From the NCBI RefSeq assembly GCF_006345805.1, contig NC_043021.1, forward strand, positions 8,122,001 through 8,186,000: DNA of 64,000 nucleotides. The letters run 5' to 3'. Positions 28,501 through 47,320 of the stretch are shown here, one piece after another. The position numbers and the translations under genes were made by a program. The stretch is from Octopus sinensis (taxonomy: Eukaryota). The first letter of the stretch is position 1, and each line of letters begins with the position of its first letter. Under the pieces are notes generated by a model that saw only the letters and a program-made list of their open reading frames with translations, was not told the DNA's origin and did not search any database.

Positions 28501-28571
28501 TTCATCCTCTGGGCGCCAAGCTAAAGGGTTACCTTTATATTCTTTGCCAGCTAAGCCGGCTCCAATGAATG
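28501..28571 (-). CDS. DRAM2: DRAM-like coding exon 5 (TFIGAGLAGKEYKGNPLAWRPEDE)
   Basis: ttccAG / GTAAGT, phase 1->0; LxWxPED motif preceding the last exon. Confidence 0.93.
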
Positions 28572-28799
28572 CTGGAAGTTAAAGTTAAGGATTGTTACAA
28601 TACTCTTGTGGGATGGTCAGCATTTGGTTGCTGAACAAATTCAATCAACTCCAGTTTTATAAGAAAGAAAATAAAACTTCAAGGAAAGAGAAACGATACA
28701 CAAGGTATTCAAGACTAGGTTATTAAAATTACCATTTATAACCTCTTCAAAAAGCTAGATGGTAAAGGCTTTTGATACCGATAAACATATTTAAACTGT

Positions 28800-29140
28800 C
28801 CATTAACACCCGTGGACATATTTACAAAGTAAGAAAACAGCACAGCTCCCATGACTTCAAGAAACATTTTTTTCACGCTGAGAGTTGCTGAAGCATGGAA
28901 CAAACTGCCGGCATCAGTTGTTAGTTGTCGGAGCACTGCATCCTTCAGGGCTTCCATGCTTCCTGAGATTCACCGGCACTACGCTTGATTTTCTCCCCTC
29001 CATGCACACACGGGCGTGTATCTGACTCGTGCATTGTTCGCTTTCCAGACATTTCTACATTGCTGCATGTACTTTATATGCACTTTCTGGCGGGTTGTGG
29101 TGCACCTGAGCACTGTATACAATAATTTCATTGTTATATT
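28800..29140 (+). mobile_element. CR1-type LINE 3' end with clustered A->G changes
   Basis: Same family as 29235-29665 (-) and 46838-47320 (+); see findings. Confidence 0.9.
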
Positions 29141-29234
29141 ATTTTATGCAATAGAAGCAGTTTTAAATTAAAGCAGCTACCTGTATGTTATATTTAATAT
29201 AAATACATCACTGCTTTTATATGCTGCTTTTATA

Positions 29235-29665
29235 TAATAATGAAATTATTGTATACAGTGCTCAGGTGCACCACAACTTGTCAAAAGTGCGTATAAAGTA
29301 TATGCAGTAATGTACAAATGTCTGGGAAGTGAACAGGTGTATGAGTCAGATACATGCTTGCGTGTGTATGGAGGGGAGAAAATCAGGTGTAGTGCTGGCG
29401 AATCTCAGGAAGCATGGAAGTTTTGAAGGATGCAGTGTTCCGACAACTAACAACTGATGCCAGCAGTTTGTTCCATGCTTCAGCAACTCTTAGCATGAAA
29501 AAATGTTTCCTGAAGTCATGGGAGCTGTGCTGTTTTCTGACTTTGTAAACATGTCCACGGGTGTTAGACAAGTGGAGTTTGAAAAGGTGCTCAGAGTTAT
29601 TGTTTGTACGATGGTTGATAATTTTATGGGTGTCTGCCAAGTCAGCCGCCAGACGTCGGAGTTTA
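29235..29665 (-). mobile_element. CR1-type LINE 3' end, inverted relative to 28800-29140
   Basis: TRGHVYK...RKHFF.RVAEAWNKL; (ATT) tail. Confidence 0.9.
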
Positions 29666-30355
29666 AAAACACAATATGCATATATGAGGGAGACAAACAG
29701 AGCATGTCCATAAGAGATGTTATCTTTGGATGAACATCACAGTAAATTGCCATTCAACAATGTACTTACATTCAGTATGAATAAAGATAGCTATTCAAAT
29801 TGTTATGTATTCAATGATTTACTATGCTCCACTTATGTCATAAGAGAAAAGGTTAAACTAACAAATGGCTTCAGTAGCTAAATTTCTAGATTCATTAAGT
29901 ATTGAGTTAGTTCAGACTTAAATATCAACATCATCGCCATTCATCTTTTGTGTTTTTTCCAAGGTCATCCAATCATTTTCAGCTTCAATTTATTGAGAAG
30001 AATACCAAATCAAGAAGTTGTCACAGATTATCTGATCCATCAGAGATGATCTGATTCTACCAGTGAAGTGTATTCTTTTTAATGTCGGGAGGGTTGCCAC
30101 TACATATTTCATGATAAATATACAACCTGGGTCTAATGGTAAGGATTTTACACAGATGGTTGTGCATTGTAACTGGTACCTGATGAAAGCAGAATTGCAA
30201 CTAAGATCATTGTTTACATTATTTACATTCGACGGATATTTGTCCTCATCTTGTTTGTTGTTAACACAACGTTTCAGCTGACATACCCTCCAGCCTTCAT
30301 TAGGTGTCTTGGGGAAATTTCGAATCTGGGTTCTCATTCCAAAAGTATTTTTCGA

Positions 30356-30395
<40 letters not shown>

Positions 30396-30884
30396 AATAT
30401 TATCATTATTATTATTCAGGTCACTGCCTGGAATTGAACTCAGAATCTTGGGGTTAGTAGCTCGTGCTCTTAACCACTATGTCATATGCCCATGGGCATT
30501 ATTTTCCTATCCTTCCTTAATACCGGTTCCCCAAGACACCTGATGAAGGCTGGTGGGTATATGAGCCAAAACGTTGTGTTAACAACAAACAAGATGAGGA
30601 CAAGTATCCGTCAAATGTAAATAATGTACATAATCCCTCGTCTCTTAAATATAGAACCGTACAACTATGGTATTTTATATCTGTTCATAAAACATTTTAA
30701 AACCTACAAAAACCTGCCATTAACATTTTAAAAACACAAAAGAGGTGTTAAATGTTCATATATGTTACTGTTTTTCATACATGTATCAATGGTTTCTGAG
30801 ATTTTTGCAGCAAATTCTAAACAAATAGAAATTCATGCATTAACATCCACCCATGTCACCTAATCAATAGTTTAAAAAGGATAC

Positions 30885-31062
30885 TCATAATGAAGAAAAA
30901 TACAGAGAAAATAGATAACACCATTCTAATTATAATAATTTTCTTTCCATTGTACATGGGGTACATCATATAAGACATTATTGTCTGGAAAATTTCGTAA
31001 ACTGAACCAATTCCAAATACCATAAAAGCTCCAATAACGTGCACAACAAGGACATTGGATTC
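30885..31062 (-). CDS. DRAM2: DRAM-like coding exon 4 (ESNVLVVHVIGAFMVFGIGSVYEIFQTIMSY...FFFIM)
   Basis: 178 nt, tttcAG / A|GTATCC; HxxGAxxxFGxGxxY..QT.SY motif. Confidence 0.96.
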
Positions 31063-31497
31063 CTGAAAGTATAAGCAACATCATATCATTTCATTTATTT
31101 ACTAATAGTTGGGGGTTTTTTTGTGTGTGTTTTGGGTTTTTTTTTAATTTTTATTTTGCAAGATGAAAAAAATATTTTTGAAACACTAAAATGTTCCAGA
31201 ACTTTCTGGGAGATAAGTAACAAGAGCAAATTTTTTTTTCTTTTTTTTTTTTCACTAAATGAATTTTCTAGAAAAATGTTTGTGGAATTATTTTTCATTT
31301 GCAAGTTTACAGGAATGGCTGTTTGGTTAAGAAGCTTGCTTCTCAACCATTTGGTCTTGATTTCAGTCCTGCTTCCAAACCACATGGTTCCAAATTAGTT
31401 CCACAGTGTGGCACCTTGGGCATGTGTCCTCTACTTCAGTCTCAGGCTGACAAAAACCTTGTGAGAGGATTTAGTAGATGGAAACTAAAAGAAGCCC

Positions 31498-34710: not shown

Positions 34711-36665
34711 ACCCACCACAGCCGAACTGATATCCTCAATCCACCTTGTTAAAGCTTGTTCAATGAGGGGCTCTGCCCCATCCCTGCCCAAGCTGTTCCA
34801 TTATCCTTCTCCCCACATACAACACATTTCATCCCCTAACACCCATCACTTCTCTATCCCTTGAGAGCAGAAAAGGCACATACTACATCCCCCAGTTTTC
34901 TCAGTTACTTCTCTTCCCCACTCCAAACCACTTCCGTTTCCCATTTTCTTCCCCTACCTACTATCACCACCTATCACCCCCCCCCTCTTTGCCCCTTCTC
35001 CCTCTTATGCTGTTCTCCATCATCAACACTTCGCTTATCTGCTATTACCCACAATGCCCTCACATATCTACGGCAACCTCCATCCCCGAGCCTCCCCTAG
35101 GTTTCTTTTCATCATTTTCTACAGTCACCTCTATCCTTCCCACTCACCCCGTCCCAAACTCTGTATCAACTTACCTATTCTCATCACCCCCCCCAGAGCC
35201 CCTCAAGAGCATATCCTGATTCATCTTTGCCATCATCTCACACACTATTGTTCTACTTATCTTACTCTCTAACCCATTCTCCTTTCTTTTCCAACTGGGG
35301 TATCCATGTATCTACAGCAAGATACCCATCTCTGTCCCTCTATAACTTCACTCTCCCAAATGGCACAAAGCTATCATCCCCTTAATAATACTTCCTACTC
35401 CCAGTTGAGGGGTGTTGCTTTTTTGTCTCCCTTTTTCGTCTTGCAAGTTACTTGGTGACCCTGTCGGTGATGGCTCTGCATAAGAAGTACCCAATACACT
35501 CTGTAAGAGGCACAATGGCCCAGTGGTTAGGACAGCGGACTTGCAGTTGGAGGATCGCAGTTTCGATTCCCAGACCGGGCGTTGTGTGTGCTTATTGAAC
35601 GAAAACACCTAAAGTTCCATGAAGCTCCAGCAGGGGGTGGCGGCGACCCCTGTTGTACTCTTTTGCCCCAACTTTCTCTCACTCTTTCTTCCTGTTTCAT
35701 GAGTAACGCTGCGATGGACTGGCATCCCGTCCAGCTGGGGGGAACACATACGCCATAGAAACCAGGAAACCGGGCCCATGAGCCTGGCTAGGCTTGAAAA
35801 TGGCGCATAAATAAAAAACACTCTGTAAAGTGGTTGGTGTTAGGAAGGGCATTCATCAGTAGAAGCCATGCCAAAACAGCTTCTGCTAAGCCATCCAACC
35901 ATGCCAGCATGCAAAAATGGATGTTAAATAACGATGATGATTGTATTTCAAATTATGATGCCTGGAGGTGTGAAGGAACAAGAATAATTTTATTTTATCT
36001 CATTGCATATGTTGCATATATTGTATATATATATATATATACTCTATATTGAGTGAGAAAACGGTATGGACGGATTTTTGGAGTCCAATATTACCCTGTA
36101 CGCCTATTTGATTATGAAGATTTACAAACATACTTTCCCAGTGATACTCAGTTTACCTACCATTATAAATAATACCAAATGTTCTTTCTCAGACCTTTCA
36201 AAATGTGTACCGCGACATCCTTTGTGTCCTGTTTTTCATTTTATTTCATTTGTTACATATATATATATATATATATATAAGGCGCGGGCATGGCTGTGTG
36301 GTTAGGGAGCTTGTTTCTTAGCTACATGGTTTCGGGTTCAGTCCCACTGCGTGGCACTTTGGGTAGGTGTCTTCCACTATAGCCCCGAGCCGACCAAAGC
36401 TTTGTGATTGAATTCGGCAGGCGGAAGTTACTGCCGTGTGTGTATATGTGCATGTAGGTGCTTGTGCCTCTCCGAAAGAGAGAGAGGGTATGCAATAATA
36501 AATGTTCGTTTACTGAAATGATCGTATCTTTGATTTGAATTTCTCTTTTCCTCATTTGAATTATTTACTCTTAATGTAAAGAAACATAACTAAATATTAT
36601 GAAACATTTTACCAATACTAAAGAAAATGCAAAAAAAACAAAAGGCATATTTATATGGGACTGAC

Positions 36666-46837: not shown

Positions 46838-47288
46838 TACTTCCCTGGGCATGGACACATTGAAACTCCGACGTCTGGCAGCTGACTTGGCAGACACCCA
46901 TAAAATTATCAACCATCTTACAAACAATAACTCTGAGCACCTTTTCAAACTCCACCCATCTAACACCCGTGGACATATTTACAAAGTCAGAAAACAGCAC
47001 AGCTCCCATGACTTCAGGAAACATTTTTTTCACGCTGAGAGTTGCTGAAGCATGGAGCAAACTGCCGGCATCAGTTGTTAGTTGCCGGAGCACTGCATCC
47101 TTCAAAACTTCCATGCTTCCTGAGATTCGCCAACACTACACCTGATTTTTCTCCCCTCCATACACACACAAGCATGTATCTGACTCATACATTGTTCGCT
47201 TTCCAGACATTTGTACATTACTGCATGTACTTTATACGCACTGTCTGACAAGTTGTGGTGCACCTGAGCACTATATACAATAATTTCA

Positions 47289-47320
<32 letters not shown>
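46838..47320 (+). mobile_element. CR1-type LINE 3' end with (ATT)n tail
   Basis: LTSLGMDTLKLRRLAADL...TRGH...RKHFF. Confidence 0.9.

What the first reader, a model, noticed from the sequence alone, without database searches (positions are those of the whole stretch)
28948..29133. CR1 copy with 17 clustered A->G changes: possible genomic fossil of an ADAR-hyper-edited RNA
Seen: against sister copies 46838-47320 and 29235-29665, this copy has G for A at 28948, 28949, 28950, 28975, 28976, 28983, 29004, 29012, 29013, 29016, 29029, 29031, 29062, 29090, 29092, 29093 and 29133 (the 29235 copy shares one). That is 17 in 186 bp against about four other substitutions, and none seen in the preceding ~145 bp. 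Changes are A->G on the element's sense strand, opposite to the DRAM transcript, and only one has a 5' G neighbour. Established: ADAR hyper-edits dsRNA, disfavours a 5' G, and RT copies inosine as G. Inference: an edited retroelement RNA was written back into the germline. Alternative: base-calling or polishing error in an inverted repeat.
Basis: partly seen in the sequence, partly recalled or inferred. Interest (0 to 1): 0.8.

Follow-up and report, generated by a model that had tools for sequence, protein, structure and literature searches.

The report
ADAR-edited LINE copies in octopus genome
A short jumping-gene (LINE) copy in an octopus intron carries 17 clustered A-to-G changes on its sense strand, and 11 other copies in the same genome carry similar clusters, likely because the RNA-editing enzyme ADAR edited the element's RNA before it was copied into germline DNA.

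Summary
Copy A (28804-29147, +), a 5'-truncated CR1-like LINE in an octopus DRAM intron, has all 17 G-for-A changes and no T>C. Fourteen are absent or rare among 87 unselected copies (none with more than 3 rare A>G); two sit at subfamily-variable sites, one in the tail. Motif scans of the 2.72-Gb genome (family at least 7,549 copies) found 12 copies with 5-34 sense-strand A>G among 26 A>G-motif loci, against 0 clustered among 16 aligned T>C-motif loci. These copies lie on several subfamily backgrounds, share sites in a non-nested way, mostly lack a nearby inverted copy, and follow ADAR's neighbour order (5' U>A>C>G; 3' U lowest). One public contig supports three of A's Gs in read data (inferred); the others were not confirmed. 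Best reading: ADAR hyper-edited LINE RNA retrotransposed into the germline (0.8). Open points: the dsRNA partner is unknown, and 10 of 12 copies lie on the assembly + strand. Ten literature searches found APOBEC G>A fossils and ADAR-edited retroviruses, but no LINE A>G fossils. The scan noted the same pattern before in L1 copies of other genomes (unchecked AI notes).

The parts
28804..29147 (+). Copy A: 5'-truncated CR1-like LINE 3' end (ORF2 C-terminus, 3' UTR, short ATT tail), young subfamily
   Evidence: only 2 G>A from natural copy L013 besides the A>G
28948..29133 (+). A>G tract: 17 sites (14 non-subfamily, 2 subfamily-variable, 1 in the tail), no T>C
28804..28947 (+). Unedited 5' part of copy A (0 of 45 A changed)
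29148..29233 (.). AT-rich spacer (about 90 bp) between tail-to-tail copies A and B
29234..29667 (-). Copy B: inverted, more diverged subfamily, no A>G or T>C cluster; with A it would form a long hairpin in DRAM pre-mRNA
   Evidence: predicted fold pairs 706 of 864 nt
46838..47295 (+). Copy C: unedited sister copy in another DRAM intron
30883..31068 (-). DRAM exon on the 5' side of the host intron
   Evidence: Pfam PF10277; tblastn
28501..28578 (-). DRAM exon on the 3' side of the host intron
   Evidence: tblastn

Best explanation
Copy A is a 5'-truncated CR1-like LINE insertion with a sense-strand A>G tract, one of at least 12 such copies in this octopus genome, and these tracts are likely the record of ADAR A-to-I hyper-editing of the LINE RNA that the element's reverse transcriptase would have copied as G when it inserted in the germline. 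Steps: (1) a LINE transcript becomes double-stranded over 100-400 nt, most likely by pairing with antisense LINE sequence, since the 3' end folds no better than shuffles (inferred; the partner may be a neighbouring inverted copy at the source or one of the many antisense intronic copies); (2) ADAR deaminates about 30% of the A in the duplex with its neighbour preference (rate and preference shown, enzyme inferred); (3) target-primed reverse transcription reads I as G (established for reverse transcriptases in general, recalled; untested for this element); (4) the insertion is inherited (its 5' junction is present in runs labelled as three organisms). The event is rare: 12 found among at least 7,549 copies.
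For: Strand: 12 of 26 distinct A>G-motif loci carry 5-34 non-subfamily A>G. 0 of 16 aligned T>C-motif loci carry more than 3 T>C (17 hits, 1 did not align; Fisher p=0.001). About 8 antisense copies would be expected if they were as common as the 12 found (my arithmetic from the power figures). Purity: 155 of 193 non-subfamily changes in 11 copies are A>G, 9 are T>C and 3 are A>T (L108 left out as a likely sister of L115). Context: edited fraction by 5' neighbour T 0.59, A 0.42, C 0.21, G 0.16; by 3' neighbour G 0.37, A 0.39, C 0.28, T 0.21. With motif-fixed sites removed: 5' 0.51/0.40/0.15/0.15 and 3' G 0.36, A 0.27, C 0.24, T 0.14; site-level permutation p=5e-5. This matches the metazoan ADAR preference in passages of PMC9989829 and PMC4365171. 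Unselected copies show neither excess nor context: A>G 0.54% vs T>C 0.70%. Independence: several subfamily backgrounds, unrelated flanks, 138 of 253 site pairs incompatible with a single descent. Orientation opposite to the DRAM transcript rules out editing of the host pre-mRNA. Reads: a 54-nt contig of run X2 at depth 83.5 (flank 53.6) matches 28936-28971 with the GGG and ends exactly where copy A and L006, the only other GGG copy, diverge; predicted depth if both are real is 80.4. Host: an octopus; coleoids edit repeats widely outside the nervous system (PMC9068888 passages).
Against: No RNA was seen and no dsRNA partner found; the 3' end folds at z=-0.41. Fourteen of A's 17 Gs have no read confirmation. 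The largest A>G motif was built on sites already known to be hit, so 12 of 26 vs 0 of 16 is not a blind test. The only fully blind pair gave 2 of 3 vs 0 of 4, and+47 vs 25+48 gave p=0.09. 10 of 12 hyper-edited copies lie on the assembly + strand (p=0.04) although the family splits 3802/3747; unexplained, and the T>C hits lean + too (11 of 17). The 5' T/A preference is also that of polymerase eta (recalled). PMC5224506 found no editing in over 2.5 kb of expressed human L1 RNA by Sanger, but allows for a small edited fraction.
Confidence: 0.8

Rival explanations
1. Error-prone second-strand synthesis of the new insertion by a Y-family polymerase (eta or iota type) puts dG opposite template T, giving sense-strand A>G tracts without any RNA editing.
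For: Gives the same strand and a similar 5' T/A preference (polymerase properties recalled; only the title of the WA-motif paper was seen in a reference list). Needs no dsRNA partner.
Against: 133 of 455 interior A are changed (29%) with only 3 changes to other bases; polymerase eta errs at a few percent of T with many transversions (recalled). Tracts do not start at the 5' junction where second-strand synthesis begins: 0 of 45 A in A's first 148 nt. L098 has two tracts with about 100 unedited nt between them. 3' U is disfavoured, as for ADAR.
Confidence: 0.08
2. Base-calling, polishing or assembly error, favoured by the inverted repeat.
For: Copy A sits 90 bp from an inverted copy. Most Gs lack read support. 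10 of 12 copies lie on the assembly + strand. Clustered mismatch artefacts can enter references (PMC2873906 passages; there G-to-A).
Against: 7 of 10 edited copies have no inverted copy within 5 kb, against 16 of 20 controls. The partner arm B is not affected. Minus-strand copies L103 and L108 show the change on the element's sense strand. The X2 contig carries the GGG with the predicted end and depth. The neighbour preference has no known reason to arise from error.
Confidence: 0.04
3. Change after insertion: an edited local transcript is reverse-transcribed and converts the locus, or a deaminase acts on DNA in a hairpin or RNA:DNA hybrid.
For: A and B can form a long hairpin. 3 of 10 edited copies have a young inverted neighbour, against 2 of 20 controls with a young and 2 with an old one (small numbers).
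Against: This predicts both orientations relative to the element, and changes in B. Only sense A>G was found, B is clean, and editing of DRAM pre-mRNA would read T>C on +. Deamination of the cDNA strand would also read T>C.
Confidence: 0.04
4. An adenosine deaminase other than ADAR1/2 (for example a germline ADAD or a DNA-acting enzyme) made the changes on the RNA or on the sense DNA strand.
For: The enzyme is not identified by any search, and no duplex was found.
Against: The neighbour order at both sides matches ADAR. No such activity was seen in the papers read.
Confidence: 0.03
5. The G states are inherited from an older or minor subfamily, or came in by gene conversion.
For: An 80%-identical older family has G at three of the sites. 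Two sites vary among subfamilies.
Against: A lacks the old family's adjacent T>C and G>A markers. A's G set is unique in the genome. 138 of 253 site pairs are incompatible with one lineage.
Confidence: 0.01

Closest known systems
APOBEC 'DNA editing' fossils in LTR retrotransposons (Knisbacher and Levanon, PMC4866542; passages read)
   Same: Clusters of one substitution type, strand-biased relative to the element, left by a host deaminase at retrotransposition and fixed in the germline.
   Different: Here A>G rather than G>A, a non-LTR LINE, an invertebrate, and RNA rather than cDNA as the likely substrate. That study reports other mismatch types as very rare in ERVs and editing as depleted in invertebrates.
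ADAR hyper-edited RNA in repeats (PMC4365171, PMC9989829, PMC9068888; passages read)
   Same: Dense A>G clusters in young repeats, 5' G and 3' U disfavoured.
   Different: Those are RNA-versus-DNA differences; here the changes are in the genome assembly.
ADAR-linked A>G hypermutation of retroviruses (RAV-1, ALV, HTLV-2/STLV-3; review passage in PMC8586724; originals not read)
   Same: Edited RNA copied into DNA by a reverse transcriptase.
   Different: Exogenous viruses in culture or infection, not heritable LINE insertions. One endogenous MMTV with an A>G excess lacked the ADAR context (PMC12548423 passage).
ADAR1 restriction of human L1 (PMC5224506; passages read)
   Same: ADAR meets retrotransposition-competent LINE RNA.
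   Different: That work found the restriction editing-independent and no edits in the L1 RNA sequenced; here a rare edited fraction appears to insert.

Membership tests
ADAR A-to-I hyper-editing (as genomic fossil) | Dense clusters of A>G with few other changes | tested here: met
   155 of 193 non-subfamily changes in 11 copies; 133 of 455 interior A
ADAR A-to-I hyper-editing (as genomic fossil) | On the RNA (sense) strand only | tested here: met
   12 of 26 vs 0 of 16 loci; one motif was built on known hot sites; blind pair 2 of 3 vs 0 of 4
ADAR A-to-I hyper-editing (as genomic fossil) | 5' neighbour U/A favoured and G disfavoured; 3' G favoured and U disfavoured | tested here: met
   against PMC9989829; with motif sites removed 5' C and G tie at 0.15
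ADAR A-to-I hyper-editing (as genomic fossil) | A long dsRNA substrate | tested here: inconclusive
   276-nt 3' end folds at z=-0.41; source locus and antisense partner unknown
ADAR A-to-I hyper-editing (as genomic fossil) | Inosine at the same sites in the element's RNA; dependence on ADAR | not testable with these tools
   no raw RNA reads were available; enzyme tests need bench work
ADAR A-to-I hyper-editing (as genomic fossil) | G present in genomic DNA reads | tested here: inconclusive
   28948-50 supported by one contig of X2, by inference; other sites not confirmed
CR1-like non-LTR retrotransposon | ORF2 with reverse-transcriptase motifs ending just before a short 3' UTR | tested here: met
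   translations (YADD-type motif seen; CR1-type C-terminus recognised from recall)
CR1-like non-LTR retrotransposon | Variable 5' truncation, fixed 3' end with a short tandem (ATT) tail | tested here: met
CR1-like non-LTR retrotransposon | Placement in the CR1 clade by an RT tree; APE endonuclease and ORF1 | not tested
APOBEC DNA editing of retroelements | G>A clusters on the sense strand | tested here: not met
   4 G>A among 193 changes
Polymerase eta-type A:T hypermutation | WA preference | tested here: met
   shared with ADAR, so not discriminating
Polymerase eta-type A:T hypermutation | Few-percent rate with a substantial A>T/A>C share (recalled) | tested here: not met
   29% of A changed; 3 non-G changes against 133
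TpA-specific two-strand hypermutation (scan note e1-9889545) | TA rewritten on both strands | tested here: not met
   one strand only; AA, CA and GA also changed

The most novel reading that the evidence does not exclude
In the octopus germline ADAR hyper-edits retrotransposition-competent LINE RNA often enough to mark a few per thousand insertions, and edited copies can themselves become sources. L108 and L115 share 5 of 6 non-subfamily edits with unrelated flanks. ADAR would then be a direct mutagen of LINE subfamily evolution and an RNA-to-DNA route for heritable edits.
Probability: 0.3. Interest if true: 0.85.

Novelty: new variant of a known kind. Interest (0 to 1): 0.7.

Why it matters
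If true, RNA edits are written into germline DNA through a LINE, an ADAR counterpart to the APOBEC scars known in LTR elements. Whether ADAR edits retrotransposition-competent LINE RNA, left open by the L1 cell-culture work, becomes testable from genomes alone. Each edited insertion is a single-molecule snapshot of germline editing (rate, tract length, site preference), which could be compared across cephalopods and other animals and dated by subfamily. It has no evident function for DRAM; the value is mechanistic and evolutionary.

Tried and rejected
Reads: the look-up of sequencing runs listed no holder on record as RNA. In some searches, no contig of the four runs laid covered 28972-29025 or 29092-29105 at 99% likeness, and three of four runs had no cover of the spacer. 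Contigs drop rare variants and are filtered, so this is counted neither way. Intramolecular fold as substrate: not supported. Local inverted partner as cause: 3 of 10 vs 4 of 20 over +/-5 kb; L243 and L244 were seen over +/-1.5 kb only and have none. General low-level editing of the family: no A>G excess or context bias in 87 copies (the first 87 of 100 listed exact matches, all on C1). The 2-fold A>G excess came from loci ranked by likeness to copy A and was dropped. Weaker A>G copies with 2-4 non-subfamily changes (L100, L106, L107, L113, L009, L006, L089, L092, L245 and others) were not counted as hyper-edited. Other repeat families: a cluster scan over 140,651 bases with 4 or more votes found only the chosen CR1 copies and one G>A run at 35512-35641, which resolved into mixed, largely CpG-type divergence. 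Literature: ten searches listed no report of genomic A>G hyper-edited LINE copies. The library lacks most subscription papers; Carmi, Church and Levanon 2011 is recalled, not read. No supplements were read; those of PMC4866542 (mismatch-type tables) may bear on novelty. PMC3657764 was not held, so polymerase eta figures are recalled. PMC9115989 passages do not mention CR1. The Atlas look-up did not help to place the host.

Full report
Observation. The window holds three young copies of one LINE 3' end: A (28804-29147, +), B (29234-29667, -, tail-to-tail with A across about 90 bp) and C (46838-47295, +). Against 87 copies taken by position on contig C1 (the first 87 of 100 listed exact matches of a 26-mer), 14 are non-subfamily changes, two (29013, 29031) fall on sites where 4 of 84 and 8 of 80 copies have G, and the tail G is in 0 of 83. 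Those 87 copies show A>G at 0.54% and T>C at 0.70% per site, at most 3 rare A>G per copy, and no neighbour bias. Copy A's count has P=4e-17 at that rate. The tract is sharply bounded: 16 of 39 A in 28948-29093, 0 of 45 upstream.

Setting. The element ends in a reverse-transcriptase ORF, a short 3' UTR and an ATT tail, with variable 5' truncation. I call it CR1-like; no tree was built. A 3' 26-mer occurs 7,549 times with at most one mismatch. The host gene is DRAM on the minus strand, and A and B lie in the intron between exons 31068-30883 and 28578-28501. The nearest DRAM relatives are named from Octopus (98% and 95%) and Argonauta (88%), so the host is an octopus. Editing of the DRAM pre-mRNA hairpin formed by A and B (706 of 864 nt paired in a prediction) would read T>C on the + strand; the reverse is seen, and B has no cluster.

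Is it general? I scanned the genome with three motifs needing at least 2 of 5 fixed A>G and three needing at least 2 of 5 fixed T>C (25, 29, 48). The 28 A>G hits are 26 distinct loci; 12 carry 5 or more non-subfamily A>G: L243 34, L098 23, L103 16, A 14, L101 13, L114 12, L102 11, L244 11, L104 10, L115 6, L105 5, L108 5. Of 17 T>C hits, 16 aligned and none has more than 3 T>C, two of them forced by the motif (p=0.001). The caveat is that the motif used sites already known to be hit, and the window contains three of A's edits. The fully blind pair gave 2 of 3 against 0 of 4. The T>C motifs had estimated power 0.26, 0.66 and 0.70 where a tract covers them, so about 8 antisense copies would have been seen if they were as common as the 12 found. 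Twelve of 7,549 is 0.16%, a lower bound.

Independent events. The 12 copies have unrelated flanks and different 5' ends and several subfamily backgrounds, and 138 of 253 pairs of shared sites cannot be placed on one line of descent. The exception is L108 and L115, which share 5 of 6 edits and a subfamily; L108 was left out of the pooled counts. Tracts differ: L243 spans at least 375 nt, and L098 has two tracts. An inverted family copy lies within 5 kb of 3 of 10 edited copies and 4 of 20 controls.

Signature. In 11 copies 155 of 193 non-subfamily changes are A>G. Inside tracts 133 of 455 A are changed and 3 go to another base. Edited fractions by 5' neighbour are T 0.59, A 0.42, C 0.21, G 0.16, and by 3' neighbour A 0.39, G 0.37, C 0.28, T 0.21. 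Without motif-fixed sites they are 0.51, 0.40, 0.15, 0.15 and G 0.36, A 0.27, C 0.24, T 0.14; permuting 5' labels over sites gives p=5e-5. PMC9989829 (passages) reports U and A favoured and G disfavoured 5', G favoured and U disfavoured 3', across metazoans including an octopus, and young repeats as main targets; PMC4365171 (passages) agrees. Polymerase eta shares the 5' preference but not, from recall, the rate or the purity.

Is it in the DNA? Four runs were laid as contigs. The 5' junction of A is present in X2 and X4 (0 differences over about 380 nt) and in X5 (6 substitutions and one gap), which carry three organism labels. One 54-nt X2 contig matches 28936-28971 exactly, including the GGG, at depth 83.5 against 53.6 for the flank. 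The assembly has one other GGG copy, L006, which differs from A at 28929 and 28972. With 31-letter words, two real loci predict a contig from 28918 to 28971 at depth 80.4, whereas L006 alone predicts about 61 nt at single depth. This is an inference; X2's library is not on record and it may be the assembled animal. The other Gs were not confirmed. Against an artefact, the clusters follow the element's sense strand on both assembly strands (L103, L108). For it, or for a tool bias, 10 of 12 lie on + (p=0.04), which I cannot explain.

Mechanism. Shown: strand, purity, neighbour order, independence, rarity. Inferred: a LINE RNA paired over hundreds of bases with antisense LINE sequence (its own 3' end folds at z=-0.41; antisense intronic copies such as A and C supply such sequence, and PMC9989829 documents sense-antisense pairing in some lineages), ADAR edited it, and the element's reverse transcriptase copied I as G during insertion in a germ cell. 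Coleoids edit repeats widely outside the nervous system (PMC9068888 passages). Confidence 0.8; rivals are second-strand polymerase error 0.08, artefact 0.04, post-insertion change 0.04, another deaminase 0.03, old subfamily 0.01.

Known and new. It works like the APOBEC scars in LTR elements (PMC4866542) but is not one of them, and like ADAR-hypermutated retroviruses (PMC8586724 passage) but is heritable and non-LTR. PMC5224506 saw no editing of expressed L1 RNA and allowed a small edited fraction. Ten searches listed no report of genomic A>G hyper-edited LINE copies; for most listed papers I saw only titles and abstract starts, and for the ten cited or looked up only the passages returned. 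The scan holds two unchecked notes of the same pattern in L1 copies of other genomes, so it may not be special to octopus; none for this genome or sequence. Verdict: real, a new variant of a known kind, interest 0.7.

Noticed in passing
L108 (G000:C6, near 3,134,000) and L115 (G000:C25, near 11,832,800): Share 5 of 6 non-subfamily A>G and a subfamily but have unrelated flanks; both are truncated, which hints at an edited source copy or gene conversion.
   Followed up: partly
L243 (G000:C10:70787661): Most heavily edited copy found: 34 non-subfamily A>G over at least 375 nt, 1 T>C; best target for read validation.
   Followed up: partly
window 29099-29112 and the same stem-loop in other copies: The three A of the 3' terminal stem-loop are unedited in 12 of 12 hyper-edited copies; could reflect selection for RT recognition, but their 5' neighbours are unfavourable, so this is not significant.
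   Followed up: partly
window 29133; L113: The first A of the ATT tail is G in copy A and in L113, and in 0 of 83 unselected copies: edits can reach the tail where priming occurs.
   Followed up: partly
L103, L104, L107, L114: Each has one A>T at a site that is G in other edited copies; could be occasional I:A pairing by the RT, numbers too small.
   Followed up: no
window 28804-29667: A and B would form a hairpin of about 340 bp in DRAM pre-mRNA some 225 nt from a 3' splice site, a likely present-day ADAR substrate.
   Followed up: no
family positions matching window 28916, 29013, 29031: Several subfamily-variable A/G sites coincide with sites often changed in edited copies; might be edits fixed in source elements.
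   Followed up: no
window 35512-35641: Apparent G>A run in a tRNA-like SINE (label from recall); resolves into mixed, largely CpG-type divergence.
   Followed up: yes
window 29210-29233: Short direct duplication next to B's tail, 11 nt of which are missing in run X5.
   Followed up: no
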